Shown here: piece after piece, positions 35,055-63,398 of the stretch
Layout of the letters: each line of letters starts with the position of its first letter
Position numbering within the stretch: position 1 is the stretch's first letter
DNA from: Actinomycetota bacterium
Lineage (GTDB): Bacteria > Actinomycetota > Acidimicrobiia > IMCC26256 > DASPTH01
Assembly: GCA_046727575.1 (NCBI GenBank)
Contig: JBKPCV010000033.1
Span: 1,006 to 65,005, forward strand
Length of the DNA: 64,000 bases
Direction: 5' to 3'
Made by a program: the position numbers and the translations under genes
The notes under the pieces: model-generated
What the model saw: only the letters and a program-made list of their open reading frames with translations
What the model was told of the DNA's origin: nothing
Database searches by the model: none

Positions 35055-35127
35055 GCGCTCGTAGCTCAACGGATAGAGCATCTGACTACGGATCAGAAGG
35101 TTGGGGGTTCGAATCCCTCCGAGCGCG
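35055..35127 (+). tRNA. tRNA-Arg(ACG); integration target
   Basis: GCGCTCGTAGCTCAACGGATAGAGCATCTGACTACGGATCAGAAGGTTGGGGGTTCGAATCCCTCCGAGCGCG. Acceptor GCGCTCG/CGAGCGC, anticodon stem TCTGA/TCAGA, loop CTACGGA. Confidence 0.92.
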
Positions 35128-35128
35128 C
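35084..35128 (+). repeat. attL core (tRNA-Arg positions 30-73 plus 1 nt)
   Basis: gactacggatcagaaggttgggggttcgaatccctccgagcgcgc, identical to 63354-63398. Confidence 0.9.
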
Positions 35129-35142
35129 TGCGAAGGTGCTGG

Positions 35143-36372
35143 TCAGCGGGTTGGAACTGCCGTCGCGGTTCGCTCCGGTAGCGAGCCTTCTACCGGATCT
35201 TCTACCGGATCGGCTGACATGAGCCGGGAGAAGACAGCAGCGGCCTCCGCTTGCATCCCGGGGAGTACCCATCCGTAGACGTCGAGCGTGAAGCTCGGCG
35301 TCGCGTGACCCAACCGCTCGCTGACGACCTTGACCGGCACGCCCGCTTTCAACAGCAGCGACGCGTGGGTGTGCCGCAGGTCGTGCAGACGGATGGACGG
35401 AAGACCGATGCGGACAACCACACGCTCGAAGACCCGGCTGAGGAGTTCGGGGTGAGTTGGCCGACCGTCCGGTCGCGCGAAGACGAGGTCATGGTCCTCG
35501 TAGCCCGCGCCCACGAGCAGCCGCTCCTCGACCTGCGTGCGTCGCCACGCATGGAGCGCAAGCGCGACGTCATCGTTGATGTCGATGGTGCGACGCCCGT
35601 TGCTGGTCTTGACGTCGGCGATGTGGAGTTCGTAGGCGACGACCGTCGCGGCTTGACGGACGTGGATGAGGTTTGCGTCGAGGTCGACGTCGGCCCAGCG
35701 TAGGCCTGCCACTTCGCCTCGGCGCATACCCGTGTGCGCGGCCAGCAGCAGCGCCGGCCCGAGACGCTCATCGCCGACTGACGCGAGGAACGTCTGGAGC
35801 TGCGCCGCGGTCCAGACACGCATCTCGTGTCCGCGCGTGTTCGAGGAGCCGCGCTTCGGCGGGTCGGCGAGCGCGGCGGGGTTGCGGATCAGCGTTCCCT
35901 TACGAACGGCATCGCCGAGCGCCTTACGGAGGATGCGATGGACGTAGCGCACACTCGCCGGGCTCAGGCCTGGACTGTTCCCGCTGGTGTTCCGCCGACC
36001 CGACTCGAGGAGCCGCGCATAGAGGGTGTCGAGGTCTTCGGGCGCGAGCCGCGCGAGCGGAACGTTGCCCAGCATCGGGAGGACGTGCAACTCAATCGTT
36101 CGACGATACGAGTGAAACGTGCTGGCCTTGAGCTGGCTGCGCTGCGACGGCAGCCACCGCTCCGTCAGGTAAACACCCACAGCCACCTTCTCCGGTGCGC
36201 GGTAGTCACCATCGTTGCGACGCTTCACGAGCTCGGTGACGAGCCTGTCGGCGTCAGACTTGCGCGCACCCGCCGGATACCAACGACGGCGTTCCTTTCC
36301 CGTCGCCGGATCGACGCCCTCGTAGATGACGGCGTAGTAGCGGCTTCCCTTCTTCGCTGTGTAACCGCGCAT
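35143..36372 (-). CDS. int: tyrosine recombinase/integrase with N-terminal arm-binding (AP2-like) domain
   Basis: MRGYTAKKGSRYYAVIYEGVDPATGKERRRWYPAG; catalytic region HTGMRRGEVAGLRW...RLHDLRHTHASLLLKAGVP...ERLGH...YGWVLPG. Confidence 0.92.
   Translation of the reverse strand: MRGYTAKKGSRYYAVIYEGVDPATGKERRRWYPAGARKSDADRLVTELVKRRNDGDYRAPEKVAVGVYLTERWLPSQRSQLKASTFHSYRRTIELHVLPMLGNVPLARLAPEDLDTLYARLLESGRRNTSGNSPGLSPASVRYVHRILRKALGDAVRKGTLIRNPAALADPPKRGSSNTRGHEMRVWTAAQLQTFLASVGDERLGPALLLAAHTGMRRGEVAGLRWADVDLDANLIHVRQAATVVAYELHIADVKTSNGRRTIDINDDVALALHAWRRTQVEERLLVGAGYEDHDLVFARPDGRPTHPELLSRVFERVVVRIGLPSIRLHDLRHTHASLLLKAGVPVKVVSERLGHATPSFTLDVYGWVLPGMQAEAAAVFSRLMSADPVEDPVEGSLPERTATAVPTR
35187..35210 (+). 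repeat. 2 x 12-bp direct repeat (cttctaccggat)2; candidate arm-type integrase binding site (P-prime arm), inside the int 3-prime end
   Basis: Identical 24-mer at 63218-63241 in the same orientation. Lies 58 bp from the core. Confidence 0.5.
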
Positions 36373-36393
36373 GCGAGGTCTCCTTCCAGCGCG

Positions 36394-36516
36394 TTACCGC
36401 TCTTCGGTGAGCCGGTTCTGGCGGGCACTCGCGCGCATCGCTTGCTGCCATCTGATCCGCTGTACCGGTCGGTGACGCGTCGTTCGCAGTCGACCGTCGT
36501 CGTCACGACCTGGCAT
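36394..36516 (-). CDS. 40-aa Arg-rich small ORF immediately upstream of int
   Basis: GAGAAGGAG then ATG 36516: MPGRDDDGRLRTTRHRPVQRIRWQQAMRASARQNRLTEER. Too short for the ORF track. The stop lies 21 nt before the int start. Confidence 0.3.
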   Translation of the reverse strand: MPGRDDDGRLRTTRHRPVQRIRWQQAMRASARQNRLTEER

Positions 36517-36564
36517 GGCGCTCCTTCTCGCTCGCAGTCGGGTCGAACATGAAGGGGAAGATGG

Positions 36565-37269
36565 TCAGCTTCGTCGCTTGTCGCGCGCGGTCCGCGGTGC
36601 CGACCGCCGACCGGCACCGCGGTCGGTACCGTCCGGTCTCGCCTCGTCCGTGGTGCCGTCTGATGTCGTGTCGTCGAGGGTGTCGATGAGGTCGGTGAGC
36701 CGTTCCAGGACGTCGCGGGCTTCGGCGAGGTCACCGAAGGATCGGCGGAGCAGCGCCCGAGCCCGCTGGTCGGCGAGCGGTGTGACGCGCTGGGAGAGGT
36801 CGGAGGGCGAGACGTTGGGCCGCTCGCGTTTGTTCTTGGGTGCGGGGGCGGTGCTGGCCGAGTAGGCCAGCAGCTCGCGTTCCCACTGGTGGAGGTTGTC
36901 GGGGGTGCCGAGGATGGCATCGAGGAGCACGATGGGGTCGAGACCCTTGATGCCGGCGTCGGGGGCATGCAGTCCGGCGTCGAACTCCGGTGGTGGGGGG
37001 GTGAAGAAGAACCCGATGGGCAGGTCGAAACCGCGGGAGAGGGCGAGGAGGTCGTCGGCGGAGAACTGCTTGATGCGGTGCAGGGTCCACGCCGAGCGCT
37101 CCAGGGCGGAGAAGCTGGCCCCCGAGAGCTTGACCCCGAGGTAGGGGGCGAGCGCGTCGGCGGCTTGTTCTTGGGTCCAGCCCCGCAGGGCGCGGGCTTT
37201 TGCCACGTTGTAGGCGACGATCTGGTTGGGGGTCATGGTGCGGCGCATCCTGAGTTTGCGTGTGGCCAT
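36565..37269 (-). CDS. XRE-family helix-turn-helix regulator (element repressor-like)
   Basis: IVAYNVAKARALRGWTQEQAADAL...LSGASFSALERS. C-terminal acidic/Thr-rich tail. Confidence 0.75.
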   Translation of the reverse strand: MATRKLRMRRTMTPNQIVAYNVAKARALRGWTQEQAADALAPYLGVKLSGASFSALERSAWTLHRIKQFSADDLLALSRGFDLPIGFFFTPPPPEFDAGLHAPDAGIKGLDPIVLLDAILGTPDNLHQWERELLAYSASTAPAPKNKRERPNVSPSDLSQRVTPLADQRARALLRRSFGDLAEARDVLERLTDLIDTLDDTTSDGTTDEARPDGTDRGAGRRSAPRTARDKRRS

Positions 37270-37404
37270 GCCCCGAAGCCTAGACCAACGGTCCTACAGA
37301 GTCACCTACGCGAGCGTTGGATACATGCTAGTCTTGGTTCTCGTTGAGTACTCGACGAACAGGCGAAAACGACTACGACGGCGGGTCTCCCGGATCTGCT
37401 GACC
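37270..37404. promoter_or_regulatory. divergent intergenic region between the XRE regulator and the excisionase-like gene; visibly AT-richer with TTGnnn/TAnnnT-like hexamers
   Basis: ttggatacatgctagtcttggttctcgttgagtact. Typical position of a genetic-switch region. No operator defined. Confidence 0.3.
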
Positions 37405-41997: not shown

Positions 41998-42858
41998 GTG
42001 TTCGCCTTCCCGCGTCCGACTGGGCCGCATGCGATTGGCACGGTGACGTATCACTGGGTGGATGCCGATCGTCGCGAAGTGTTCAGCGCAGATCCGGATG
42101 ATCGTCGTGAGCTGATCGTGCAGGTCTGGTATCCCGCCAGGGACTTGCCTTCGTCGCCGCGCGCTGCTTACATGCCGGACGCCGACGTCGTGGCTCCGGC
42201 ACTGGCGCGCTTCCTCGGCGTACCGGAATCCACTTTCGGTCTCCTCAAGGACGTCCGCACGAACGCCGTCGCGTCTGCGCCCGTCGCAGACGACGATCAG
42301 CTCTACCCGGTGCTGATCATGCGGTTGGGGCTCAAGGGCAGCTACCGCCAGGTGCAGACGTTTCAGGTGGAGGAGTTGGTCTCGCACGGCTATGTCGTCG
42401 CCGCCATCGATCAGCCGTACGCCGCCGCGATGGTCGTGTTTCCGGATGGCCGCCAGGCGGCCTACGACGAGCATTGGGACCCACCGCACAGCGCGTTCAT
42501 GGACGCGCACATTCCGTATATCGCGGCCGATGCGATATTCACGCTCGATGAGCTCGCCGCCGTCGATCGCTCCGATCCGCACGGCGTGTTGACCGGGCGG
42601 CTTGATCTCGAGCGTGCCGGCACCTTTGCGACGCCGCCTCGACGTGGAGTGAGCCACGTTGCGGGCGCGCTCTGCTCGGCTCTATGCCTGCTCGACGTGC
42701 GCGAGAACGCAAGTCCGGTCACGATCATTCTTGGGGGCGCGGTGGTCGATCCGGCCACCGGCGCTGTAATAGCGAGATTGCAGCCGGGCCCGGTGCCCGG
42801 GATGTGCTCGCCCGCCATCGCGTCGGCGCGCCAGAACGATTGGGCGTGGCGCCCATGA
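41998..42858 (+). pseudogene. PAF-acetylhydrolase-like lipase, N-terminal half only
   Basis: FPRPTGPHAIGTVTYHWVD...LIVQVWYPA...YPVLIM...ELVSHGYVVAAIDQPY...GRLDLERAG, then no GHSxG elbow. The frame continues as non-homologous sequence to 42858. Confidence 0.55.
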
Positions 42859-42865
42859 CGGCAGA

Positions 42866-43400
42866 TCAGGGCCGGCGTGATTCGAAGCGCACCTCGGGGA
42901 ATTGTGGTGATGGGCCGGCGAGCAGCGGTGCTGGCCGGCCGCGCAATGCCCGGTCGAAGAAGGCCACTGAATAGGTGTTGATGATGCGGTGCGCGCGATC
43001 CGCGCCGATCGGTCCGGTGAAGCCCGGCCAGGAGACCAGCGCCGAGAGGAATGGAGCATCGGTCATGTCGAGGTGGAACATGCCGGGCAGCTCCACGTAG
43101 TAACCGTCTCCCGGTAGGCGCTGATACACCGCCCGCATCGTGTCCAGAGTTTCTCGAATGTCTGCCTCTGACCAACCGCCGGCAGTGCGGCGTTCGAGCC
43201 GCATGCTGTCGGCGTCACGGGCAATGAACATCGTCGGCTGCTGCAAGCCACCACGAACCACGTCCGCCGGCATGAAGGCTTCCTCCAGCAACCCCGCACG
43301 CAGACGCGGGTCGAGGCGGCAAGCCTCACCCCCCACGATGGCGCCGAGCGAATGACCAACGAGGCCGGCCCGCGACGCGCCAGAACGCGCGCTCAAGATC
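42866..43400 (-). pseudogene. PAF-acetylhydrolase-like lipase, C-terminal half only, convergent with the N-terminal fragment
   Basis: RAGLVGHSLGAIVGGEACRLDPRLRAGLL...MFIARDADS...LPGMFHLDMTD...AFFDRAL. No credible upstream N-terminal sequence. A DLERA string sits one frame off just upstream. Confidence 0.55.
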
Positions 43401-43529
43401 GCGGTCCTCACCCTCCCACCGGACGCGCCATATCGGCACGTCGATGTGCCGTCTATCCGTGCTCGCCGTTCTAGCGGTTGATGACGGCCTGTGATCTCCA
43501 GGCGCGGTGTCGCTTGACCTGATGTGATC

Positions 43530-44073
43530 TCAGGTCGTGGTGATGAAGGCGACGACTTGTTCGATCGTGGGGTTGTAGCCGGCGGTGGTGTCGACGTCCA
43601 TCGTCGGTGCGGCGATGGTGAGTCGGCGAAACTGTTCGAAGTATCGGTCGCCGGATGCGAACACCTGCAGGAGCGCATGGTCGGCGTGAGCGGATCTCGA
43701 GGTCGCCCGCGCAGAGATCCGTTGCCACGCGGTGGCCGGGTCGGTGTGACATTGCACGAGGCGAAGCGAGCCGAGTGCGGTGAGCGGGGCGAGGTCCGCT
43801 CTCCAGACCTCGTCCTGACGGGCCGCTTCCGCGACGACGGTGACGCCGCGCTCGGGCAACAGGTGCAACAGCTCAAAGAACACCGCGAGCGCGCGTTGGG
43901 TGAGCACATCTCCAGGTGTCGGGTCGTGAACCGTTGGCTCGGTGGGCCATTCCTCCCTTGATCTCGTCGCGACAGATCGACGGGCACGCCAGCAACCGAG
44001 GCGGTTCATGCGCCAGGGTCGTCTTGCCGCAGCCGGCCGGACCGCTGACGACCACCAGGGTCGGGGAAGTCAC
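43530..44073 (-). pseudogene. P-loop kinase/AAA-type ATPase (zeta-toxin/AAA_33-like), single frameshift
   Basis: Frame 1 (ORF 43873..44253) gives VTSPTLVVVSGPAGCGKTTLAHE...ICRDEIKGGMAH. Frame 2 (ORF 43530..44009) gives EPTVHDPTPGDVLTQRAL...GVTVVAEAARQDEVWR. The switch is at the ccc-acc run around 43940-43950. Confidence 0.6.
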
Positions 44074-44165
44074 ACCACATCCTGCCAGGACCACCCCGAC
44101 GGCCGGCTCAGGAGCGCTGAGGAATGCCGCGTCGACCGTGACGCAACAGGCGTAATACTCGTCGC

Positions 44166-44727
44166 ATGGTGCGAGTGGTGGTGGTCGGACCGCCCGGGTC
44201 AGGCAAGACGACGGTCGCCAACTCTCTTGGCTCGTCGACTCGGCGTGGCACACATCGAACTCGACGCGTTGTGGTGGGAGCCCGACTGGACCGAGGCGGG
44301 ACCGGAGTTATTCCAGGCTCGTCTGCGCAGGGTGGTCGCAGCCGACTCGTGGGTCCTCGACGGCAACTACTTCTCCGTCGGCGCACGCGAGATGGTCTGG
44401 CCGAGGGCGGACACCATCATCTGGCTCGACCAGGCGCGCTGGGTCACCGTCGCACGGGTCCTGCGTCGCACGATCGTCCGCGCGCTGCGCGGCACCGAGC
44501 TGTGGTCGGGCAACCGAGAGTCGCTCAGCAGCGCGTTTCGTCCCGACTCGATCGTCCGCTACGCATGGAAGGAACACCCCAAGTACAACCTCCGCTACCA
44601 AGGCCTGGCTGACGACGAAGAGTTCGCCCATCTCGAATGGGTGCGCCTCCGCTCACCGAGCGAAGTCCGCCGCTGGATCGCCTCGCTTGCGACGGGCAGA
44701 GCAGTCCAGCTCAAAGCTTGGGCCTGA
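44166..44727 (+). pseudogene. adenylate-kinase-like P-loop NTPase (topology-modulation FlaR-like), single frameshift
   Basis: MVRVVVVGPPGSGKTTVANSL (ORF 44166..), then ARRLGVAHIELDALWWEPDWT...VLDGNY...ADTIIWLD in ORF 43942..44727. The extra base is near 44227-44232 (cttggctcg). Confidence 0.6.
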
Positions 44728-45816: not shown

Positions 45817-45984
45817 GACAGACGGCTATCAGCCCGCGGTCGTCACGCGACGCGACGCGGCACGACGGTCACGCCCAGCCAGCCCCGGCTCCACTCCACC
45901 CCACGCCGGTCAACCTCTTCAAAACCCGTGCGCGCCACTACAGATCAGGCAGTTCGGGCGCTTAGCGGCGGCGCGCGTTGACGA

Positions 45985-53584: not shown

Positions 53585-53689
53585 CTCCCGCAGTACAAGC
53601 CGCGAGGAACCGATATCGGCACCTGAACAACGGCCGCGGTCGTGATGGTGCGCGGCCACGAGGAGTAGAGCGCGCTGGGGCTCAATTCG

Positions 53690-54124
53690 TTACGTGGCCG
53701 CGGCCATGTAGCCAGCCGTTACCTCGTTCTTGCGCGCTGAGAAGGCAGAGAGGACTTCTTCCTTCTCGCGCGGCGGCACTTTGAAGAAGTCAAGGGTGCG
53801 CCCAAGCTCGGCCGAGACCTCGTCGAATTCCTCTGGCGAGATCTTGAGTTCACGATGCGCCTCCTCAAGACCCACCTCAGTCTTTCCCGGCTTTGTGGGT
53901 GTGTATTGGAGCGGCCCGCCAGAGACCGCGCAGACCCACAGAGTTCGCATGAACTTGAGGCCTGGCAACCTATCTAACTGCTTGGTGTGCCACTCCCGGA
54001 GAGCTGGGTTGTTCGAAGGCTTCCCAACGATCGGGTTCTGCACAACCGCGTCGCTGAAGTGGTCAACCACCGCCGCGATGGCGAAGACGCCACCAAGCCG
54101 TACGTACAGACTCTCGTCGGCCAT
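53690..54124 (-). CDS. group I truncated hemoglobin (trHbN-like)
   Basis: ORF 53690..54154, ATG 54124. MADESLYVRLGGVFAIAAVVDHFSDAVVQNP...FMRTLWVCAVSGGPLQY...EAHRELKISPEEFDEV. Confidence 0.8.
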   Translation of the reverse strand: MADESLYVRLGGVFAIAAVVDHFSDAVVQNPIVGKPSNNPALREWHTKQLDRLPGLKFMRTLWVCAVSGGPLQYTPTKPGKTEVGLEEAHRELKISPEEFDEVSAELGRTLDFFKVPPREKEEVLSAFSARKNEVTAGYMAAAT

Positions 54125-54208
54125 GTTCACAACCTCCGCAATCATGAGCGTCAAACACCCTTCGACGCTTCATCACCTTGCGCTTGATCCATCCGTACTT
54201 CGTTGTAC

Positions 54209-54373
54209 TTACTGGCGCGGTGACTGTCGCGGAGAAAGTCGCGACGCCAGGTAGCCCCCGCCACTACCGCTACCGCCGCCTGAAGACAGGGCGATCGCGA
54301 CGCCGATCGCGACAACCAGCAGTGCGACCACCCAAACGAGAGGACGACGCGACACCCGTTCAAAGGCTGGCAT
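54209..54373 (-). CDS. 54-aa signal-anchor peptide with a Gly/Ser tract
   Basis: GAGGAGAAAGAG then ATG 54373: MPAFERVSRRPLVWVVALLVVAIGVAIALSSGGGSGSGGGYLASRLSPRQSPRQ. Confidence 0.45.
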   Translation of the reverse strand: MPAFERVSRRPLVWVVALLVVAIGVAIALSSGGGSGSGGGYLASRLSPRQSPRQ

Positions 54374-55021
54374 CTCTTTCTCCTCGCTCAAGTCACGGCG
54401 AAGAGTTCTACGAGCGTCTGACCCGAAGGGGATTGCGCCCTCCGCTGACCGGCGCCGCCGATTCAAGGTCACCGAGCAAGCGCGGCCCGCTCCGCGGTGC
54501 GCGGTGGTCATGCCGATCGGCCGTCGTTCCGGTAATCTCCGAGCACCTCGGTCGCGGCCGGTGCCTCGCTCGCTGGTCGACACACCCGCACCAGAGCGGG
54601 CACTCGGTGCGGATGCCTCACGCGTTCGGTCGCCGCGGTCGTTGTGATCTGGCTTGCTCGTACTCGTCGCGATGCCGCGGATTGGTATGTCACGGGTCGG
54701 GCTGATCTCGCTGGTCGGGCTCTGGGTCGCTGCGTCTAGCACCGCCAACTTGGCGTGGCGTGCGCAGCGGAGTTTCGCCAGAGTGGGGTCGAGTCCGGCG
54801 GCCGCTGTTACTGGCTGTGGATGCCGCGACCGGCGAGGAGCGGTGGCGGGCGGAGACGGCGGGTTTTCTTGTCATCGAGGATGGGTCGGCTCGTCGGACA
54901 TGGCTGGCCCCGCACGGCGCTGCCGTACCGCGCTGTTGTCGACCCGATTCGGGCTTGTGACTGTCCCGCTGCACGCGACATCACCGTGGGCCTTGACCGC
55001 TTCACGCAGCGAGCTTTCCGA

Positions 55022-55110
55022 GGTGCCCCCGCCCGAACCTGTACCTCCGCCCGAACCGGTCCCGGCACCGGAGCCAGTCCCGCCACCGGAGCCGGTCCCT
55101 CCACCTCTCG
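55022..55110. repeat. low-complexity CCN/GGN repeat (PPPEPVPPPEPVPAPEPVPPPEPVPPP on plus); inverted partner of 50351-50445
   Basis: cccccgcccgaacctgtacctccgcccga at 55026-55054 is the reverse complement of 50391-50419 with 1 mismatch in 29. Confidence 0.7.
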
Positions 55111-55202
55111 ATTTGAGCAGGCGCGACCCTTAGACGACGAAGCCGCAAGCCGAAGACGCCGGTATCGTGAATTGGAACCGAGCGAACTGAGAGTCCAATC
55201 TG

Positions 55203-55337
55203 ATGCGGTACGGCCCGAAGCACGAAAAGTTGGAGTGGATCCGTGATCGGTGGCTCGTGATCCTCGTGGTGCTGGTCCTTGTCGCTGGGATCGTTTCGGC
55301 GTTGCTTCTCACCCAAGGTTCGGGTACTGGCTACTAG
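55203..55337 (+). CDS. 44-aa signal-anchor peptide ending in a Gly/Ser/Thr tract; architecture like 54209..54373
   Basis: MRYGPKHEKLEWIRDRWLVILVVLVLVAGIVSALLLTQGSGTGY stop. Confidence 0.35.
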   Translation: MRYGPKHEKLEWIRDRWLVILVVLVLVAGIVSALLLTQGSGTGY

Positions 55338-55592
55338 CGGCTGAGAACGACGAAGCCCCGCCACCAGGACCGGGGGAGGGCAACATCGAATCGTGGGCGC
55401 GGGTCGGGCTACGAGCCGCTGTTTGCCGAGTCGACGGCCAGGCGTCGTCGAACTTGCTCTGCACCTGAACGCAGAGGAACACAGCCGCGAGCTCCACGCG
55501 CCATATCTGCCAGTGAGTATGTGATCTGTCGTTGGGGTCCACCATCGCGTTGATGGCGGCCGCTACGTTCAGCGCCCGCACGTTGGTCTGAC

Positions 55593-55847
55593 TTGTTGTT
55601 GCACCGAGGTTGTTGGGTGCTTGTCGACCGGCGGCGCGGTCGGAATGCCAACGACCGGCTCTCGGCGCTCGTACAGCTCGCCACGCCGCTCGGTCTCTTC
55701 GCCGAAGAGATGGACCCCACCAGCCTCGATCACCTCGGCAACTATCCCCAGGCGCTCACCCACGCCGCGCTCATCCAAGCCGCACTCGCGCTCCGAGACG
55801 CCCAAGCCCCACCAGCTCCGCAAGGAACCACAATCGACGGGTCATGA
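55593..55847 (+). pseudogene. C-terminal fragment of a GH15 glucoamylase-like protein
   Basis: LGLFAEEMDPTSLDHLGNYPQALTHAALIQAALAL matches the conserved GH15 C-terminus (GLLSEE.DP..G..LGNFPQAFSH..LI). No upstream catalytic domain is present. Confidence 0.6.
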
Positions 55848-55900
55848 TGACCGACAGGACCATGCTCACTGCGACCAGTCGTCAGCAATGGGTCGCGGTT

Positions 55901-56388
55901 TCAGCCCGACGTGGCGACGCCGCTCACCGCTTTCAAGATGTCGTCGTGCTCAACATCGAACTTGTCACACAGGCGATGCAGTAGCTGAGTGTTCATGAGC
56001 GCGAACCCCACGCCCTGCTGCACTTCCTTGGTGACCTTCGTGTTCTCGGTTAGGAGGTCGTTGTCGTGCAACGCCAGCTAGCTGCTGATGGCGTCCTGAC
56101 GCTTCGCCGCGATGAGAAGCGCCGCCGCTTGTACGCCGCGAGCATCGACAAGAACAGGTTCAACAGGATGTATGGGTACGGGTCGAAGCCATGCTCGCCG
56201 CGGCTGCCCCCGAAATAGAACACCGGTTTGAGGATGGCCCAGAGAATCATCACGCCGAAGAAGCAACAGACGAAGACCCACGATCCCATGGCGTTGCGCA
56301 TTGCGTCCGCTGCCCGCTCACCGACCGTGAGTTGATCCGCCTTACGGACCGCCGGGTGCTTGTGCCACTTACCACCCTCAATGGCCAT
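55901..56388 (-). pseudogene. DUF1003-family membrane protein with a frameshift and an in-frame TAG
   Basis: MAIEGGKWHKHPAVRKADQLTVGERAADAMRNAMGSW...GFDPYPYILLNLFLSMLAA, then the frame switches to VQAAALLIAAKRQDAISS-TAG-LALHDNDLLTENTKVTKEV. Confidence 0.65.
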
Positions 56389-56853
56389 TGGCTTTGTCTC
56401 TCTCGTCACGTACACCTCCAGCTACTCTCTGGCGCCGTCAATCGCATGCCGTCCAGGTCCCGGCGTGGCATCCCCCACCGCTCGTTCGACAGCTCCCAGT
56501 CCTACAAGTGCGGCCGCGAGACGCAGGGACGAAAGCTGCCGGTCAGTGCGCGGCAGCGGTCGCGAGGATGGCAGCGTCGGCACATGGGCGGCGGCGCCTT
56601 GGAGCTATCCGTGAGAGTTTGTAGCTGCGGGCTACGTCGTCAAGGAGCGACGGCTGTCGGAACCGTTGCCACTAGCAGCGTGACAATGGAGTGTTCGAGG
56701 GCCGTCAGGCCGACGAAGCCGGACCCGACGCGCACTGAACGCGAAGTCGCGTAACGACCCGGCCGTCGAAACGGGGACGTTCTCGAGCGGCTCTGCTCGC
56801 GCGCGCAGGCTGCCCAGCGGTGGGCGCCGGTCGGGCTGGGTGAACGGCGAGGC

Positions 56854-58062
56854 TCACGATCGTGTCGGGTCTCGGGGTCCGTGGCTGGGTCGGTGTGTGC
56901 CGGCGATGCCGGCGGCATAGACGAGCACGGTGATCATGAGCAGGACCGCGAGGGCGGCGAGTCCCGTGGTCGTCGTCGGTTGAAGCGTGACGGCAGTGAG
57001 CGCCCCGAGGACCCAGATGAGCTGGTAGAGGGTCTCGAAGCGGGCGAATGCTCGGCCGCGGGCGGCGTCGGGGGCGTCGCGTTGGAGGATGCTGTCGAAG
57101 CCTTGGCGGCCGATGGTGACTGCACAGATGACCGCGAAGACCGCGGCGAGTTCGCTGCCCCGCTCGAGGTGCACGGCGGCGGCGAGTGAGCCGAGCCCGG
57201 CGGTGAGCAACGCGATGACGAGGAGGGGTTCCTCGCGGCGCAAGTGGCGGCGGAAGAAGGGGCTGACGAGCGTTCCGGACAGTCCTCCCAGGACGCCACT
57301 CAGTGCAATCGCACCGAAGAACCAGAGGGGCTCGCCGGAGCGCTTGAGCGCGAAGGCGACCAAGAAGGTCAGGAAGCCGACCGCGGCGCGCAGCACGCTC
57401 ATCGCCCCAGCAGAGAGTCGGACGGTCGGCGCGCGGAGTTCCTGCTGTTCGAGCGTGGCCGGCGGCAGCTGCGTCGTCTGATTGGGCCCGATCCGCACCG
57501 CGAAGACGGCGCCGGCGAAGTACACGAGGGAAGCGACGCGCAGGACCCCGGTGGCGCTCCCGAGAGTCAGGATGCCGGTCGCAATGCCGCCGCCAACGAG
57601 ACTCGCGATGGTGGAGATCCGCGCCAGTCGCGAGTTTGCTTCGACGAGGTCCGCGTTGTCTCCGATCATGGCAGGCACGAGCGCGCTCTTGCTGACGGAG
57701 TAGGCCTTGCCGAAGACGAGGACTCCGAAGGCCTCGGGATAGAGCAGCACGGTGCGAAGATCCCCGGCGATGAAGAGACACAGGATCCCTCGCACCAAGC
57801 AGGTGAAGGCCACGACCAGGTGTCGGGCGGAACCGAACCGGTCGATGAGCGGTCCGATCAGCGGCGCGAGCACCAGGAACGGCGCCAGCGTCAAGGCCAG
57901 GTACACGATGACGCGTGGTCGCGCCGCGCCCACGGAAACGTTGAAGAACAGCGACCCGGCGAGCGACACCGCGAAGAACGCGTCTGCGCCGGTGCTGCAC
58001 GCATGGGTGTAGGAGAGTCTCGCGATCGACTTCGGGCCGACGATGCGCTCCAAGAGCGTCAT
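56854..58062 (-). CDS. MFS transporter
   Basis: 12 TM-like segments. LAPLIGPLIDRFGSARH. Full-length ORF with no disruption seen. Confidence 0.8.
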   Translation of the reverse strand: MTLLERIVGPKSIARLSYTHACSTGADAFFAVSLAGSLFFNVSVGAARPRVIVYLALTLAPFLVLAPLIGPLIDRFGSARHLVVAFTCLVRGILCLFIAGDLRTVLLYPEAFGVLVFGKAYSVSKSALVPAMIGDNADLVEANSRLARISTIASLVGGGIATGILTLGSATGVLRVASLVYFAGAVFAVRIGPNQTTQLPPATLEQQELRAPTVRLSAGAMSVLRAAVGFLTFLVAFALKRSGEPLWFFGAIALSGVLGGLSGTLVSPFFRRHLRREEPLLVIALLTAGLGSLAAAVHLERGSELAAVFAVICAVTIGRQGFDSILQRDAPDAARGRAFARFETLYQLIWVLGALTAVTLQPTTTTGLAALAVLLMITVLVYAAGIAGTHRPSHGPRDPTRS

Positions 58063-58209
58063 GGTCGTCTCCGGACCCGATCAACAGTTACTGCCGCCGA
58101 CCGGTCGGCAGCGCGAGCGGAGCGAGATGACGCTCCAGTGCCGGGCGATGTGGCACCCTGCGCTGGTAGGTTGTTTGCACGCTCGAGCAACCGCAAGCGA
58201 GGCGATGCT

Positions 58210-58686
58210 GTGCGACGAACCTTCGTCCTGGCAGCCTCGGTCGTAGCTGTCATGACCGCGTGTACCGGCGGGGGCTCCAACACCAGCGACCGACCCGCCG
58301 CCATCTACTCCGCCGTGATCCGCGCGGTCCTCGCTGACACGTCGCATCCCAAGATCAGTTCGGACACCAGCGTCTTCGTCGTTGCCGCCCACGAGCGCGC
58401 GCCCATCCCCTTCGAAGTACAAGCCGACATCGTCGCCGAGCTGCACGAACTCGCCACGATCCGTTTTGTTGACCACCGCGTCGAAGCAATCGACGACTCC
58501 AGCCCGACCAGGCCCGTCAACGACAACGGCATCCTCATTACGCTCGGCAAGATACCCAGCCGAGCGAACACCGTCACCGTCAAAGCCGGCCGCTACCTCA
58601 ACGCCACCGACACCGTGGCATACCGCGTCACCGTCAAACGAACCAACGCCCACTGGAAACCGATCGCAACGACCAGCCAACCGTGA
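58210..58686 (+). CDS. lipoprotein of unknown function
   Basis: In frame with ORF 57244..58686, GTG 58210. VRRTFVLAASVVAVMTACTGGGS lipobox. Confidence 0.6.
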   Translation: MRRTFVLAASVVAVMTACTGGGSNTSDRPAAIYSAVIRAVLADTSHPKISSDTSVFVVAAHERAPIPFEVQADIVAELHELATIRFVDHRVEAIDDSSPTRPVNDNGILITLGKIPSRANTVTVKAGRYLNATDTVAYRVTVKRTNAHWKPIATTSQP

Positions 58687-58773
58687 CCAAGAACAAGCAC
58701 AACTCGCGATTTTCGATCTTCTCCAGGTAACCGTGTTGCTGGTGACCGAACTCGTCACCAACACGGCGTCACC

Positions 58774-59526
58774 GTGGGGTTCCTCCGGCGGTTCACCCGC
58801 CGCAGCTTCGAGGCACGCCGACCGCTCAAGATCGGGCTCGCAGTGCTCGGGTCGATGTCCTTCCAGGGCTCGTTGATCGGTTGGGTCGCCGACCATCGTC
58901 GACACCACCGGTATGCCGACCGGCCGGGCGACCCCCACTCGCCCACCTGGCGAGGTGCCGACCACCTGTCGGGATGGCGCGGCCTCTTCCACGCGCACGC
59001 CGGGTGGTTCTACTACAACGAGACCAGCCCGCGCTCCGAGTACGCAGCGGACTTGCTCGCTGATCCCGACTTGGTGGTGATCGACCATCTCTTCGTGCCG
59101 TGCTGCGTAGCAACCCTCATGCTGCCCTTCGGTGTCGGGTACCTCGTGACCGGCACGTTGGCCGGTGCCCTCGGTGCGCTGGTGTGGGCGGGGGTCCTGC
59201 GAGTCGGCATCGGCCACAACCTGACGTGGTCGATCAACTCCATCTGCCACCGCTTCGGCAAGCGGCCGTTCCGCACCCGCGACAACAGCACGAATGTCGC
59301 GGTCCTCGCGCTATTCACCGGGGGCGAGTCGTGGCACAACGCCCACCACGCATTCCCGACCTCGGCCCGTCACGGGGCGGACCGCTTCCAGCTCGACACG
59401 TCAGCTGCGCTGATCCGCCTCTTCGAGCGTCTCGGCTGGGCAACCAACGTGCACTGGCCCTCCGCCCGGCAGCTCGACGCTCGACGCTTCGGCACGCCCG
59501 CGGGTGCGGCGGGACGTGCATCCTGA
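58774..59526 (+). pseudogene. membrane acyl-CoA/acyl-lipid desaturase lacking the N-terminal TM region and with a degenerate first His box
   Basis: HGVTVGFLRRFTRRSFEARRPLKIG where HRLxxHRSF is expected. Later boxes are intact (WVADHRRHHRYAD; ESWHNAHHAFP). Confidence 0.55.
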
Positions 59527-59879: not shown

Positions 59880-60965
59880 GCGGTGACCTCCCCAGTGACG
59901 ACAAGGTCGAGGTGATTGCCTACGTCCCCGTCCGAGTCCCGGCCGGCCAGTGCGAGTGGCATATGCACGGTTCCGACGAATCGGTATGACGCCATGGACC
60001 GCGTCCCGCGGGTGGCGGCGTGACGTCGCTCGAGGCGAAGACCCGCTACGCGTTCGGTTCCGCGGAACTCCAGTCGTGCGTCACCAACCCTGCTTTGCCA
60101 CCTTCGAAGTCGGTCCAGCTGATGACGGCGAGGTTCGGCACTGCAATCGGGCCAGTCCTGATGCTGGCCACGTGCGCCGATGGACGGACAGCGCTGGCAG
60201 GTCGTAGCCGGGCAATGCAGCACGACCGGAGCTACTCGCGCTTCCAAATGGCTCTTGCAGGTGCCCGTGGCGCGGGTGCATCCGCGAATCTGCAGGTTCT
60301 GATCTGATCTGAACTGGGTCAGCGTCGCGTGAAGAACGACGAGCGCGACGCGCTCGACTTGGTTGACATGTTTCGAGTGGGTCGGGTTGCCCCCGGGGTG
60401 GATCGCGCCACCTGCGATTCGGGAGCTTCGAGAGCTGGTGCGTTATCGGGCCAAGTTGGTCGCACCACGTTCGGGACTCAAAGCGCCGATGCACGCGGTG
60501 ACGGCCAACGATCGTGTCGTGCCGACGGTGGCGGACATGTCATGTCAGGCCGGCGACGCGCAGCTCTGACGCGATGGCGATAGCAGCCAACTACGTGACT
60601 TGTGTCTAGTCGCTGTGTGATTTTGATCGCGGTCTAGGACCGTGATCTCGTCATGCTCGAGTGCAAGATCCAAGCCCCAGGCGCGGCGCACCGCGGCTAT
60701 CTGGCGATGCAGGCCGTCAACGGGGTTGGCCGCCAGGCAAAGCCGAGCTGGTCGTCGCCGCTGGCGAAGCTGCAGGGCAAGGACCGACGACCGAGGTGGC
60801 CACCGACCTCGCCGGCGCGGTCCAGGTGGAGCTATCTCCACGGGTCGGGCCAACCCTTCGAAGCCGAACCCGCCAACCGGTTCTCTTTGAGTTCTGTCAT
60901 CTCGCTACGAACGCGCTTAGGTGATCGTCACGTCGGACAAAGCCCTTCGGTCGCTACGGCGTAGT
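59880..60965 (+). pseudogene. IS110-family transposase remnant, multiple frameshifts
   Basis: KNDERDALDLVDMFRVGR / WIAPPAIRELRELVRYRAKLVAPRSGLKAPMHAV in two frames (60329-60570). Weaker N- and C-terminal similarity is spread over three frames. Confidence 0.5.
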
Positions 60966-61161
60966 TCGGCGACGCCAACGTCGCTGCCGCCATGACAAGC
61001 ACCGGGGCACCGCGAGGCGCAGTCGCGCCACATCGCTGTCGCCACCGGGTGAAAACTGACCTCTTATCACCGGTCGAAAACTGACCCCCTTCTGGTCGGG
61101 TCCACCACTTGGAGTGTTGGGACTCGGACCCTGGTTCGATCACGAGCCGGGGAGGAAGGGC

Positions 61162-62370
61162 GTGATCGATGTGGAGGATTGGGCCGAGATTCGTCGGTTG
61201 CATCGGGCGGAGGGGTTGAGCATCAGGGCGATCGTCCGGCGCTTGGGGGTGTCGCGGAACACGGTGCGCGACGCGCTGCGCAGCGGTGAGCCGCCGCGTT
61301 ATGAACGTCCAGCGAGGGGCTCGGCGGTGGATGCGGTCGAGCCGCTGATCCGCGACTTGTTGCGCGAGTTTCCGACGATGCCGGCGACGGTGATCGGGGA
61401 ACGGATCGGCTGGACGCGTGGGATCACGATCCTGCGCGACCGGGTCGGGGAGTTGCGACCGTTGTTCGTGCCGCCGGATCCGTGTCAGCGCACGACCTAC
61501 TTGCCGGGTGAGCTCGCCCAGTTCGACCTATGGCAACCCGACATCGAGATCCCGGTGGGGTTCGGCCAGCACGACAAGTTCTGGGTCGTGGTCGGTGTCA
61601 GTGGTTTCTCGAGGCTGATCGCAGCGTGGATGGTTCCTTCCCGGGCCGCGCATGACGTGCTGGGCGGCATGTTGCACGTGCTCGATCAGTTCGGTGCCGT
61701 CCCGCGTACCGCGGTGTGGGACCAGGAGGGTTGTATCGGCGCGTGGCGGGCCGGCCGTCAGGTCCTCACCCGCGACTTCCAAGCATTTCGCGGCACACTC
61801 GGCATGAGTGTTCGGTTGTGCGCACCGGCCGATCCCGAAGCCAAAGGGATGGTCGAGCGCACGAACGGCTATTTCGAGACGAGCTTTCTGCCCGGTCGGT
61901 GTTTCGATCACGTCGAGGACTTCAACCGGCAACTGACAGGCTGGCTGCGTCGGGCGAATAACCGGATTCATGGCACGACGAGACAGCGACCATCGGAGGC
62001 GATCTATGAGGACCGCGGGTCGATGATGAGCTTCCCTCCGGTGCTTCCCGATCCGTCGTGGCGGTTCACGACCCGCCTCCCACGTGATCACTACGTGCGG
62101 GTCGACAGCAACGACTACTCGGTCAACCCGCGCTTCGTCGGCCGTCGGATCGAGGTGCGCGTGACGCTGGACGAAGTGATCGCGACCTGTGACGGCACCG
62201 AGGTCGCCCGTCATCGTCGCTGCTTGGCGAAGCACCAGACGTTGCTGCATCCCCGACATGCACGGGTGCTGCGTGCGATACGCGCCGAGCAGCAGATCGC
62301 GTCGGAGTTCGTCGACACGGTCGAAGAACGTGACCTCGCCGATTACGACCGGGCACTCGGGGTCGCGTGA
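61162..62370 (+). CDS. istA: IS21-family transposase IstA
   Basis: GGAGGAAGGGC then GTG 61162. VIDVEDWAEIRRLHRAEGLSIRAIVRRLGVSRNTVRDAL HTH, DDE core (FDLWQP...WDQEG...ERTNGY). Confidence 0.9.
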   Translation: MIDVEDWAEIRRLHRAEGLSIRAIVRRLGVSRNTVRDALRSGEPPRYERPARGSAVDAVEPLIRDLLREFPTMPATVIGERIGWTRGITILRDRVGELRPLFVPPDPCQRTTYLPGELAQFDLWQPDIEIPVGFGQHDKFWVVVGVSGFSRLIAAWMVPSRAAHDVLGGMLHVLDQFGAVPRTAVWDQEGCIGAWRAGRQVLTRDFQAFRGTLGMSVRLCAPADPEAKGMVERTNGYFETSFLPGRCFDHVEDFNRQLTGWLRRANNRIHGTTRQRPSEAIYEDRGSMMSFPPVLPDPSWRFTTRLPRDHYVRVDSNDYSVNPRFVGRRIEVRVTLDEVIATCDGTEVARHRRCLAKHQTLLHPRHARVLRAIRAEQQIASEFVDTVEERDLADYDRALGVA

Positions 62371-63143
62371 TGAGCACCACGAAGCCGAGTGCGGACATCG
62401 CATATCTGTGCCGGGCGCTCAAGGCACCCTCGCTGGCACGCTCCTGCGAACGGCTCGCCGAACGGGCGCGGGCCGAGAGCTGGACCCATGAAGAGTTCCT
62501 CGCCGCCTGTCTCGAGCGCGAGGTCGCGGCGCGTCAAGACCACGGCGGTGAGGGCCGCATCCGCGCCGCGCGGTTCCCGGCCCGCAAGACCCTCGAGGAC
62601 TTCGACTTCGCCTTCCAACGCTCGCTGAAGCGTGAGGTGATCGCGCACCTCGGCACCCTCGACTTCATCGCCGAGCGCGCCAACGTCGTGTTCCTCGGGC
62701 CGCCCGGCACCGGCAAGACCCACCTCGCGATCGGGATCTCGATCCGAGCCTGCCAAGCCGGTCATCGCGTCGCGTTCGCCACTGCGACCGAATGGGTCGC
62801 CCGCCTCGGCGACGCCCACACCCACGGACGACTCCACGACGAGCTCCGACGGCTCGGACGCACCCCACTGCTCGTCATCGACGAAGTCGGCTACATCCCC
62901 TTCGAAGCCGAAGCCGCCAACCTGTTCTTCCAACTCGTCAGCTCCCGCTACGAACGCGCATCGGTCATCGTGACCAGCAACAAACCCTTCGGCCGCTGGG
63001 GCGAAGTCTTCGGTGACGCCACCGTCGCCGCCGCCATGATCGACCGGCTCGTCCACCACGCCGAAGTCGTCTCCCTCAAGGGCGACAGCTACCGCCTCAA
63101 AGACCGCGACCTCGGGAGGGTGCCCAACGACGACGCAGCGTGA
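62367..63143 (+). CDS. istB: IS21-family helper ATPase IstB
   Basis: ATG overlaps the istA stop. FLGPPGTGKTHLA Walker A, LLVIDEVGY Walker B. Confidence 0.92.
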   Translation: MMSTTKPSADIAYLCRALKAPSLARSCERLAERARAESWTHEEFLAACLEREVAARQDHGGEGRIRAARFPARKTLEDFDFAFQRSLKREVIAHLGTLDFIAERANVVFLGPPGTGKTHLAIGISIRACQAGHRVAFATATEWVARLGDAHTHGRLHDELRRLGRTPLLVIDEVGYIPFEAEAANLFFQLVSSRYERASVIVTSNKPFGRWGEVFGDATVAAAMIDRLVHHAEVVSLKGDSYRLKDRDLGRVPNDDAA

Positions 63144-63217
63144 CCACGGGCCCCGACCAAGGGGGTCAATTTTCAGCCGGTGGAAGGGGGTCAATTTTCA
63201 GCCGGTGTTGACAATCG

Positions 63218-63241
63218 CTTCTACCGGATCTTCTACCGGAT
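63218..63241 (+). repeat. second copy of (cttctaccggat)2; candidate arm-type site (P arm), 112 bp from the attR core
   Basis: Identical to 35187-35210. It abuts the IS21 target duplication. Confidence 0.5.
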
Positions 63242-63353
63242 GCTCCGCCACGAGACCTCAGAGACCGTCATCCGTCGAATGCCGTCCGAGTGAAACCGCA
63301 GGTCAACAGGCCTGTGCGACATCGGCCGACACCCGCCGACACCTCTCGGAACG

Positions 63354-63398
63354 GACTACGGATCAGAAGGTTGGGGGTTCGAATCCCTCCGAGCGCGC
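63354..63398 (+). repeat. attR core: displaced 3-prime portion of tRNA-Arg
   Basis: Exact 45/45 match to 35084-35128. Upstream sequence is unrelated to the tRNA 5-prime half. Confidence 0.9.

What the first reader, a model, noticed from the sequence alone, without database searches (positions are those of the whole stretch)
35084..63398. 28.3 kb integrated element in tRNA-Arg(ACG), delimited by exact 45-bp direct repeats
Seen directly:
- An intact tRNA-Arg lies at 35055-35127.
- The string gactacggatcagaaggttgggggttcgaatccctccgagcgcgc (tRNA position 30 to the 3-prime end plus 1 nt) recurs exactly at 63354-63398. No tRNA 5-prime half precedes that second copy.
- A tyrosine integrase ends 15 bp after the tRNA.
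- Between the repeats lie an XRE regulator, an excisionase-like HTH, a MobF relaxase, two IS families and many broken genes.
- Outside the repeats are ordinary chromosomal genes (MFS and SnoaL on the left, cobT on the right).

This is the classical attL-int...attR architecture of a tRNA-targeting integrative element.
Basis: partly seen in the sequence, partly recalled or inferred. Interest (0 to 1): 0.7.

Follow-up and report, generated by a model that had tools for sequence, protein, structure and literature searches.

The report
Mobilizable island in tRNA-Arg gene
This is a real but ordinary 28-kb mobile DNA island that inserted itself into an arginine tRNA gene of an uncultured soil actinobacterium; it carries its own integrase and DNA-transfer relaxase but no transfer apparatus, and half of it is decayed cargo and insertion sequences.

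Summary
An exact 45-bp repeat (35084-35128 and 63354-63398) equals positions 30 to the 3' end of an intact tRNA-Arg(ACG). The repeats bracket 28.3 kb that starts with an intact tyrosine integrase. The interpretation (attL-int...attR integrative element) is supported and can be made more specific.

- **Family:** the element belongs to a family seen in Acidimicrobiales-like soil genomes. Members share the backbone int, XRE-like regulator, HTH_17 protein and MobF relaxase-helicase.
- **att sites:** three independent relatives have the identical 45-nt core. They also have a tandem 12-mer (CTTCTACCGGAT x2) at fixed distances from the core: 58-59 nt on the int side and 111-113 nt on the far side. 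These are probably arm-type integrase sites.
- **Accessory status:** a related genome with the same left flank carries a different island at this tRNA. Two soil DNA runs hold the flank at 95-100% identity but not the island. No precise empty site was found.
- **Transfer genes:** no coupling protein, T4SS, FtsK-like translocase or phage gene was found, so it fits a canonical integrative mobilizable element (IME).
- **Decay:** the cargo half is decayed. It holds a frameshifted second relaxase 3' copy, IS scraps, and an intact IS21 with a 5-bp target duplication just outside the far-side arm.

Excision was not shown. It is a new member of a known kind, of modest interest.

The parts
35055..35128 (+). 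Intact tRNA-Arg(ACG). Its positions 30 to the 3' end (35084-35128) form the attL core.
   Evidence: ARAGORN; Rfam RF00005, 70.5 bits; exact 45-mer
35084..35128 (+). attL core, 45 bp, identical to attR. It starts in the anticodon stem; the anticodon is at 35088-35090.
   Evidence: D13
35187..35210 (+). Tandem 12-mer CTTCTACCGGAT x2, 58 nt from the core, inside the integrase 3' end where it encodes the tail DPVEDPVE. Candidate P'-arm integrase-binding sites.
   Evidence: Only 4 copies in the window against 0.13 expected; same motif and spacing in L004, L005 and L006; protein tail not conserved across the family
35143..36372 (-). Tyrosine integrase, 409 aa, with intact catalytic residues.
   Evidence: Pfam Phage_integrase 7e-24 and Phage_int_SAM_3; R217/K255/H330/R333/H356/Y366 invariant; more than 6000 homologs, the closest named ones from Acidimicrobiales MAGs
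36565..37269 (-). orf234, a conserved backbone protein with an N-terminal XRE-type HTH. Probably the element's regulator.
   Evidence: Faint HTH_3/HTH_31; 569 homologs at 67-89% identity among those listed, some named XRE-family regulator; AlphaFold model residues 10-90 match XRE HTH structures with target-normalised TM 0.62-0.74
37270..37404 (.). Divergent intergenic region with an 18-bp palindrome at 37341-37358. Candidate operator or oriT region; unproven.
   Evidence: not conserved in alignment with L005 and L006
37405..37776 (+). HTH_17 (excisionase/MerR-type) protein, 123 aa, directly upstream of the relaxase. Either a recombination directionality factor or a relaxosome accessory protein.
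   Evidence: HTH_17 E=1.9e-5, 25.3 bits against a cut-off of 27; same gene in the same position in L005, L006 and L010
37852..41667 (+). MobF (TrwC-type) relaxase fused to an SF1B helicase, 1271 aa, with a ~360-aa C-terminal extension.
   Evidence: TrwC 8e-74 and AAA_30 4e-39; NCBIfam MobF 230 bits against 100; EDYY and HRTSRAGDPQLHTH motifs
41998..47610 (.). Cargo block 1: a PAF-AH-like hydrolase (41998-42858), a weak abhydrolase ORF (42866-43987, -), two small P-loop (AAA_33-like) ORFs (43533-44069, -; 44166-44612, +), unassigned ORFs, and a Clp_N-domain protein (46927-47610).
   Evidence: strong-ORF coverage 0.33
47843..48960 (+). Second, frameshifted copy of the relaxase C-terminal ~360 aa (59-64% aa and ~77% nt identity to 40579-41664).
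   Evidence: the repeat finder D1-D4 and D8; tblastn gives two HSPs in different frames; the module lies at the C-terminus of ~1120-1273-aa proteins elsewhere
49061..59526 (.). Cargo block 2, poorly coding: ferredoxin (49061-49456, -), a MarR-like HTH (49675-50085, -), an unknown 270-aa ORF (51385-52197), a LapA_dom ORF carrying a faint FAD_binding_3 N-terminal match (52372-52653), a globin (53690-54154, -), a DUF1003 fragment (56053-56421, -), an MFS transporter (56854-58062, -), and a fatty-acid desaturase (58774-59526).
   Evidence: strong-ORF coverage 0.21 in 49.0-56.8 kb
60333..60964 (+). IS scraps: an IS110-like fragment (60333-60566) and an istB-like fragment (~60850-60964).
   Evidence: DEDD_Tnp_IS110 E=0.023; repeats D14 and D18 match the istB 3' region at 69-85%
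61037..63213 (+). Intact IS21-family element: istA 61114-62370 and istB 62367-63143; 55-nt terminal inverted repeats; 5-bp target duplication ATCGC at 61032-61036 and 63214-63218.
   Evidence: (I1); X1 contigs span both junctions
63218..63241 (+). Tandem 12-mer CTTCTACCGGAT x2, 112 nt from the attR core. Candidate P-arm integrase-binding sites; homology with relatives begins here.
63354..63398 (+). attR core: the tRNA 3' fragment with no 5' half.

Best explanation
The 28,270 bases from 35129 to 63398 are an integrative mobilizable element (IME) in an uncultured soil actinobacterium, probably of the Acidimicrobiales.

How it works (inferred from the established mechanism of tyrosine integrases, unless marked as shown):
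- Its tyrosine integrase recombined a circular attP with the chromosomal tRNA-Arg(ACG) gene. Strand exchange fell somewhere in the 45-bp identity that runs from the anticodon stem to the 3' end.
- The element supplies a replacement 3' portion, so the tRNA stays intact at attL and a 3' fragment is left at attR. This outcome is shown by the sequence.
- The inferred attP has two directly repeated 12-mers on each arm, which would be bound by the integrase's N-terminal arm-binding domain.
- Excision would reverse the reaction, probably helped by the HTH_17 protein and controlled by the XRE-like orf234.
- The MobF relaxase-helicase would then nick an oriT that has not been identified.
- The element has no coupling protein or mating-pore genes, so transfer would depend on a co-resident conjugative element.

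This copy has grown to about 28 kb from the ~10-17 kb seen in relatives. It gained cargo that is now largely decayed, a frameshifted second relaxase 3' copy, IS scraps and a recent IS21. Both att sites, the arm repeats, int and the relaxase are intact, so it may still excise. That has not been shown.
For: - **Boundaries:** exact att repeats and an intact tRNA.
- **Core genes:** the integrase has a complete catalytic set. The relaxase passes the MobF model with its catalytic motifs present.
- **Family:** the backbone int-orf234-HTH17-TrwC recurs in L005 and L006, and in part in L004. All have the identical core and the 12-mer tandem at 58-59 nt and 111-113 nt from it. L005 is bounded by exact 47-nt copies of the same tRNA segment. 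Cargo is not shared among relatives.
- **Accessory status:** L007 has the syntenic flank with a different island. Runs X15 and X17 tile the flank with 155-180 contigs at 95-100% identity but give only 20-30-nt chance matches on the island.
- **No transfer or phage genes:** no FtsK/TraB, VirB4, VirD4 or phage family appeared in about 60 ORFs scanned.
- **Definition:** this matches the canonical IME of PMC5704250.
- **IS21:** its 5-bp target duplication and its position outside the conserved arm are shown.
Against: - No circular attP junction or precise empty attB was recovered.
- In runs that carry the island, it occurs in about the same share as its flanks, so it looks fixed there.
- oriT was not identified.
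- The HTH_17 hit is below Pfam's cut-off.
- Composition does not distinguish the island from the chromosome.
- No helper conjugative system is known for this host.
Confidence: 0.8

Rival explanations
1. It is a fixed genomic island that no longer moves. It is an ex-IME on its way to becoming ordinary chromosome, and its intact int and relaxase are merely not yet degraded.
For: The island and its flanks occur in equal shares in every DNA run that has the island. Half of it is poorly coding. IS21 and IS scraps sit at the attR end. Another sample has an extra IS110 inside it. No excision product was seen.
Against: The att cores are 45/45 identical, all four arm 12-mers are perfect, and int and the relaxase are full-length with catalytic residues. 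IS21 lies just outside the conserved arm. Close relatives without the island exist, so gain or loss is recent on the population scale.
Confidence: 0.25
2. It is a composite made by tandem accretion of two related elements in the same tRNA, followed by deletion of the internal att site and the second integration module.
For: A second, diverged (~77% nt) and frameshifted copy of the relaxase 3' region lies 7.3 kb downstream of the first in the same orientation. The module is normally the C-terminus of ~1120-1273-aa proteins. A tandem array at this very tRNA is seen in L007. Accretion is a documented route for IMEs (PMC5704250).
Against: There is no internal core copy at up to 10 mismatches, no extra 12-mers, and no second int, orf234 or HTH17 remnant. 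Proteins of 300-450 aa carrying only this module exist in the database, so the copy could be a stand-alone paralog.
Confidence: 0.3
3. It is a self-transmissible element, either a T4SS-type ICE or an actinomycete AICE with an FtsK-like TraB.
For: It is an actinobacterial element integrated in a tRNA gene, and it encodes a large relaxase-helicase.
Against: No FtsK_SpoIIIE, VirB4, VirD4/TraG or replication-initiator family was found in any ORF scanned, including all long ORFs. The smallest relative is only ~9.9 kb.
Confidence: 0.04
4. It is a prophage or phage-derived satellite.
For: The integrase has 33-35%-identical relatives in Bacillus and Mycobacterium phages.
Against: Ten unassigned ORFs gave 0 PHROGs hits. 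No capsid, portal, terminase or tail Pfam family was found in any ORF. A conjugative relaxase is present.
Confidence: 0.02

Closest known systems
Canonical integrative mobilizable elements (IMEs) as defined by Guedon et al. 2017 (PMC5704250), e.g. NBU1 of Bacteroides in tRNA-Leu
   Same: It has a single tyrosine integrase and integrates into the 3' part of a tRNA gene, with direct repeats that keep the tRNA intact. It has its own relaxase but no coupling protein or T4SS, and variable cargo.
   Different: The relaxase is MobF with a fused helicase. The 2017 review listed no MobF canonical IME and only one IME from Actinobacteria. The host is an uncultured Acidimicrobiales-like lineage. Neither oriT nor mobilization has been demonstrated.
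MOBF-carrying IMEs of Mesorhizobium (PMC8627217)
   Same: They are chromosomal elements with a MOBF relaxase and no complete T4SS. They are delimited by att sites next to tRNA genes, including tRNA-Arg, and span a wide size range.
   Different: [quoted passage not shown] Here the relaxase is preceded by an HTH_17 gene and a divergent XRE-like gene, and there is no sequence relationship beyond the MobF domain (best plasmid hits are 28-33% identical).
Actinomycete integrative and conjugative elements (AICEs such as pSAM2 and SLP1; own knowledge, with TraB mechanism as summarised in PMC5704250)
   Same: It has an actinobacterial host, a tyrosine integrase, integration into a tRNA gene 3' part, and a small HTH excisionase-type gene.
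   Different: AICEs transfer double-stranded DNA with an FtsK-like TraB and replicate with RepSA-type proteins. Neither was found here, and a single-strand relaxase is present instead.
Arm-type site architecture of lambda- and L5-type tyrosine integrases (own knowledge)
   Same: Short direct repeats lie on both arms at fixed distances from the core, and the integrase has an N-terminal domain in addition to its SAM-like and catalytic domains.
   Different: Binding has not been tested. Only one tandem pair per arm was recognised, both pairs are in the same orientation, and the int-side pair lies inside the integrase's own coding tail.

Membership tests
Canonical IME (PMC5704250) | Encodes a site-specific integrase | tested here: met
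   Phage_integrase 7e-24; catalytic R-K-H-R-H-Y all present
Canonical IME (PMC5704250) | [quoted passage not shown] | tested here: met
   Exact 45-bp repeats; intact tRNA at attL and a 3' fragment at attR
Canonical IME (PMC5704250) | Encodes its own canonical relaxase | tested here: met
   NCBIfam MobF 230 bits against a cut-off of 100; TrwC 8e-74; catalytic motifs present
Canonical IME (PMC5704250) | No coupling protein and no mating-pair-formation (T4SS) genes | tested here: met
   About 60 ORFs, including all long ones, were scanned against Pfam without such families. Caveat: highly degenerate fragments could escape detection.
Canonical IME (PMC5704250) | A functional oriT recognised by the relaxase | tested here: inconclusive
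   Only an 18-bp palindrome at 37341-37358; no conserved structure in relatives
Canonical IME (PMC5704250) | Excision and mobilization by a helper element | not testable with these tools
   Junction reads could not be examined. Indirect support only: relatives at the same tRNA with different cargo, and island-free relatives.
AICE (actinomycete ICE) | FtsK/SpoIIIE-like TraB DNA translocase | tested here: not met
   No FtsK_SpoIIIE hit in any ORF
AICE (actinomycete ICE) | Replication initiator (RepSA, Prim-Pol or similar) | tested here: not met
   No Rep family found (same calls)
T4SS-type ICE | VirB4 ATPase and VirD4-type coupling protein | tested here: not met
   None found (same calls)
Prophage | Capsid, portal, terminase or tail genes | tested here: not met
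   0 PHROGs hits for 10 unassigned ORFs; no phage structural Pfam family in any ORF
IS21 family | IstA transposase plus IstB helper ATPase, multi-repeat terminal inverted repeats, and a short target duplication | tested here: met
   transpos_IS21 205.6 bits against 160 and IS21_help_AAA 299.7 against 200; 55-nt inverted repeats; 5-bp ATCGC duplication
MobF relaxase | N-terminal catalytic Tyr motif, His-triad motif, and the model cut-off | tested here: met

The most novel reading that the evidence does not exclude
The window holds a member of an undescribed, abundant family of MobF-type mobilizable islands in soil Acidimicrobiales. A conserved XRE-like/HTH_17/MobF module is exchanged between integrases that target tRNA-Arg(ACG) and tRNA-Ala(TGC). 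The arm-type sites are embedded in the integrase's own coding tail. Such a family would imply that an unknown single-strand conjugation helper circulates in this poorly studied class.
Probability: 0.45. Interest if true: 0.4.

Novelty: new member of a known kind. Interest (0 to 1): 0.3.

Why it matters
It adds a well-delimited example, with att core, candidate arm sites and a conserved backbone, of a mobilizable island family in Acidimicrobiales-like soil bacteria. Mobile elements and conjugation in that group are almost undescribed.

The conserved attP geometry and the identical attB across several genomes could be turned into an integration tool, or into a marker for tracking gene flow in soil metagenomes.

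As biology it is ordinary. Islands integrated in tRNA genes that carry a tyrosine integrase and a relaxase are a textbook class, and MobF-carrying IMEs at tRNA-Arg are already documented elsewhere.

Tried and rejected
- **Read-level junction search.** Logan contigs of the carrying runs are too fragmented to give junctions.
- **Pattern scan for att junctions.** One degenerate pattern able to match attL, attR, attB and attP found nothing in JGI metagenome contigs or IMG/VR, although it matches both window junctions.
- **Species-representative genomes.** These hold no close relative of the left-flank MFS gene (best 29% identity), so no empty site came from there.
- **Close MFS orthologs on JGI contigs.** No DNA was available and the contigs end near the tRNA.
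- **Plasmid collection.** There was no nucleotide match to the island and no orf234 homolog.
- **Compositional test.** GC and tetranucleotide profiles do not separate the island from the chromosome.
- **oriT.** No conserved inverted repeat was found in the relaxase-upstream regions. The promoter and terminator scan was uninformative.
- **Defence island.** 0 PADLOC hits.
- **Gly-rich inverted repeats** (50.35-50.43 kb and 55.03-55.10 kb) as markers of paralogs or a composite transposon. The flanking ORFs are unrelated and the repeats are low-complexity.
- **PDB sequence searches** for the HTH_17 protein and the relaxase C-terminal extension found nothing.

Full report
**Observation.** ARAGORN finds a tRNA-Arg(ACG) at 35055-35128, and Rfam places it at 35055-35127 with 70.5 bits. 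The 45-mer GACTACGGATCAGAAGGTTGGGGGTTCGAATCCCTCCGAGCGCGC occurs exactly twice in the window, at 35084-35128 and 63354-63398, with none expected in shuffles. The bases on either side of the two copies differ, so the identity is exactly 45 bp. It runs from tRNA position 30 in the anticodon stem (anticodon at 35088-35090) to the 3' end. No tRNA 5' half precedes the second copy.

**Anatomy, backbone.** High G+C (about 67%) creates many shadow ORFs, so genes were picked by codon-position bias and checked against Pfam, NCBIfam, PHROGs and PADLOC. From the tRNA inward:
- A 409-aa tyrosine integrase lies at 35143-36372 (-), with Phage_integrase 7e-24 and an N-terminal SAM-like domain. R217, K255, H330, R333, H356 and Y366 are present and invariant among relatives.
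- orf234 lies at 36565-37269 (-). Pfam gives it only faint HTH_3/HTH_31 signals. It has 569 homologs, 67-89% identical among those listed, and several sources call them XRE-family regulators. In an AlphaFold model only residues 10-90 are confident, and they match XRE-type HTH structures such as C.BclI, SinR, P22 c2 and an M. smegmatis XRE protein (target-normalised TM 0.62-0.74, weak E-values).
- A divergent 135-bp spacer contains an 18-bp palindrome.
- A 123-aa HTH_17 protein lies at 37405-37776 (+), at 25.3 bits, just under Pfam's cut-off of 27.
- A 1271-aa MobF relaxase-helicase lies at 37852-41667 (+). It scores TrwC 8e-74 and AAA_30 4e-39, and NCBIfam MobF 230 bits against a cut-off of 100. 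The EDYY and HRTSRAGDPQLHTH motifs are present.

**Anatomy, cargo and IS.** Beyond 41.7 kb the content is heterogeneous. It includes:
- a PAF-AH-like hydrolase, two small P-loop ORFs and a Clp_N protein;
- a ferredoxin, a MarR-like HTH and a globin;
- a DUF1003 fragment, an MFS transporter and a fatty-acid desaturase.

ORFs with a strong coding signal cover 0.90 of the left flank and 0.88 of the backbone. They cover only 0.33 of 41.7-49.0 kb and 0.21 of 49.0-56.8 kb.

At 47843-48960 there is a second copy of the relaxase's last ~360 codons, at 59-64% amino-acid and ~77% nucleotide identity. It is in the same orientation and split by a frameshift.

Near the right end lie a faint IS110-like scrap (60333-60566, E=0.023) and an istB-like scrap (about 60850-60964). 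An intact IS21 element follows at 61037-63213. It has 55-nt terminal inverted repeats, istA and istB above NCBIfam cut-offs, and a 5-bp target duplication ATCGC. Contigs of run X1 span both IS21 junctions, so the insertion is real in independent data.

No FtsK/TraB, VirB4, VirD4 or replication-initiator family appeared in about 60 ORFs scanned, including all long ones. PHROGs and PADLOC gave no hits for the unassigned ORFs tested.

**Flanks.** On the left are an MFS transporter and a SnoaL-like protein (Pfam on the identical called genes). On the right is the 3' end of cobT (DBI_PRT 5.6e-23).

**A second repeat.** The 12-mer CTTCTACCGGAT occurs four times in the window against 0.13 expected. 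It forms two perfect tandem pairs in the same orientation. One pair lies 58 nt inside attL (35187-35210) and the other 112 nt inside attR (63218-63241). The int-side pair lies within the integrase's last codons and encodes DPVEDPVE. That tail is not conserved across the integrase family, and the far-side pair is non-coding, so the motif is conserved as DNA rather than as protein.

**Relatives.** The integrase has thousands of homologs. The closest named ones, at 73-80% identity, come from Acidimicrobiales, Acidimicrobiia and other Actinomycetota MAGs. Three loci with 75-82%-identical integrases were fetched:
- L004 has int abutting a tRNA-Arg(ACG).
- L006 is an element of about 9.9 kb whose far end has the identical 45-nt core.
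- L005 is bounded by exact 47-nt copies of the same tRNA segment, 17.1 kb apart.

All three carry the 12-mer tandem 58-59 nt from the core on the int side. L005 and L006 also carry it 111-113 nt from the core on the far side; L004's far end lies beyond the contig start. On the far side, similarity among the elements begins exactly at the 12-mers and continues to the core.

This conserved geometry is what arm-type integrase-binding sites would look like. Binding itself is inferred, not shown. IS21 sits immediately outside this conserved stretch, and its target duplication leaves the 12-mers intact.

Only the backbone (int, part of orf234, HTH_17, and the first ~900 residues of the relaxase) and the far-side arm are shared with relatives. 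The cargo is not.

The orf234/HTH_17/TrwC module also occurs next to a different integrase beside tRNA-Ala(TGC) in L010. L009, at the same tRNA, keeps the orf234-like and HTH_17 genes but no relaxase. The family is therefore modular.

**Is the island accessory?**
- A MAG contig (L001, GCA_046725485.1) and two JGI contigs carry the same occupied junction. One of the JGI contigs has an extra IS110 transposase inside the island.
- In L007, a 4.05-Mb contig with the syntenic MFS-SnoaL-tRNA-Arg flank (~76-78% nucleotide identity), the tRNA is followed by a different 7.7-kb island. That island ends in a second core copy (44 of 45 positions identical; 43 nt exact) and is followed by another integrase-fragment/HTH_17 module. 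The site is therefore a hotspot, and the window's 28 kb is not ancestral.
- Word shares in public runs show island and flanks travelling together in X1, X3 and X14.
- Runs X15 and X17 (DNA) tile the left flank with 155-180 contigs at 95-100% identity. On the island they give only 20-30-nt chance matches, apart from a conserved ferredoxin and the istB core. Close relatives without this island therefore exist.
- Two runs labelled RNA (X7, X13) show the same pattern. That could equally reflect lack of transcription.
- A precise empty attB junction was not recovered.
- Composition does not mark the island: GC is 0.668 against 0.683 and tetranucleotide z-scores stay at or below 2.5. This fits exchange among related hosts or long residence.

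**Mechanism.**
- Shown: the att repeats, the intact tRNA, the intact integrase and relaxase, the conserved arm repeats, the absence of transfer-apparatus genes, and the accessory status.
- Inferred from the established mechanism of tyrosine integrases that target tRNA genes: a circular form carrying attP (12-mers, 112 nt, core, 58 nt, 12-mers) recombined with the tRNA gene within the 45-bp identity, and the element supplied the new tRNA 3' portion.
- Inferred from position and family: the HTH_17 protein acts as a directionality factor or relaxosome accessory, and orf234 acts as the regulator.
- Inferred from the definition of canonical IMEs (PMC5704250): the relaxase nicks an unidentified oriT, and the element is transferred by a helper conjugative system.

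**The second relaxase copy.** The duplicated module lies at the C-terminus of ~1120-1273-aa proteins in several database clusters. It also occurs in shorter, possibly fragmentary, proteins. Two readings remain open:
- The simplest is a 3' remnant of a second relaxase gene, which would fit tandem accretion followed by deletion.
- Against this, there is no internal att scar and no second integrase remnant, so a stand-alone paralog is not excluded.

**Comparison and novelty.** The element meets the tested criteria of a canonical IME. It fails those of an AICE, a T4SS-type ICE or a prophage. The 2017 review knew no MobF canonical IME and only one IME from Actinobacteria. MOBF-carrying IMEs at tRNA genes, including tRNA-Arg, have since been described in Mesorhizobium (PMC8627217). 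A text search found nothing on such elements in Acidimicrobiia. This is therefore a new member of a known kind, in an understudied lineage.

Noticed in passing
L007:12151-21284: In a related 4.05-Mb contig the same tRNA-Arg(ACG) is followed by a different 7.7-kb island that ends in a second core copy (19869-19913; 43 nt exact). A further module follows with an integrase fragment and an HTH_17 gene. This looks like a tandem array at the same hotspot, with the integrase fragments oriented away from the tRNA.
   Followed up: partly
L005:11230-17385: In this relative about 6.2 kb separates the integrase from its arm repeats and the tRNA. The inserted genes include a radical-SAM protein, DUF4186 and an HTH_3/Peptidase_M78 protein. 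The integrase has lost the DPVEDPVE tail, so this looks like a nested insertion.
   Followed up: partly
window ~43400-43700 (JGI sample 3300041966, contig of 21,330 bp; no DNA available): A contig with the identical integrase and the same gene order carries an extra 348-aa IS110 transposase after the PAF-AH-like gene. The window lacks it, so the island is structurally polymorphic between samples.
   Followed up: no
L009:10001-12447 and L010:5552-12412: In L010 the orf234-like/HTH_17/TrwC module sits next to a different integrase, with a 55-56-aa HTH_17 Xis-like gene, beside tRNA-Ala(TGC). L009 has the same arrangement without a relaxase. The same regulatory genes are thus paired with different tRNA-targeting integration modules.
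   Followed up: partly
window:50342-50431 and 55026-55103: Gly-rich coding repeats (GGSGSGGGTGSG-type) occur in inverted orientation, up to 94% complementary over 33 nt, bracketing 4.6 kb. The ORFs that contain them are otherwise unrelated.
   Followed up: yes
window:62533-63090: The istB core of the IS21 reaches word depths of 160-1364 in soil metagenomes, where the neighbouring island DNA is at about 13. Closely related IS21 copies are therefore very abundant in these communities.
   Followed up: no
window:20502-21003: A 500-bp stretch inside the ORF 20041-21075 (+) shows depth spikes of 120-300 in four unrelated runs, against 1-9 for its neighbours. It is a highly conserved or highly abundant segment of unknown identity.
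   Followed up: no
window:8590-8681, 14679-14766 and L004:10315-10518: tRNA-Ser(GCT) and tRNA-Ser(TGA) lie in the same neighbourhood as tRNA-Arg(ACG) both in the window and in L004. This suggests a conserved tRNA neighbourhood in this lineage.
   Followed up: no
window:35132-55000 in runs X7 and X13: Two runs labelled RNA-Seq hold both flanks (shares of 0.22-0.49) but essentially nothing of the island, apart from the ferredoxin gene and a ~96%-identical stretch at 50.5-50.9 kb. Either the island is silent or it is absent in those soils.
   Followed up: partly
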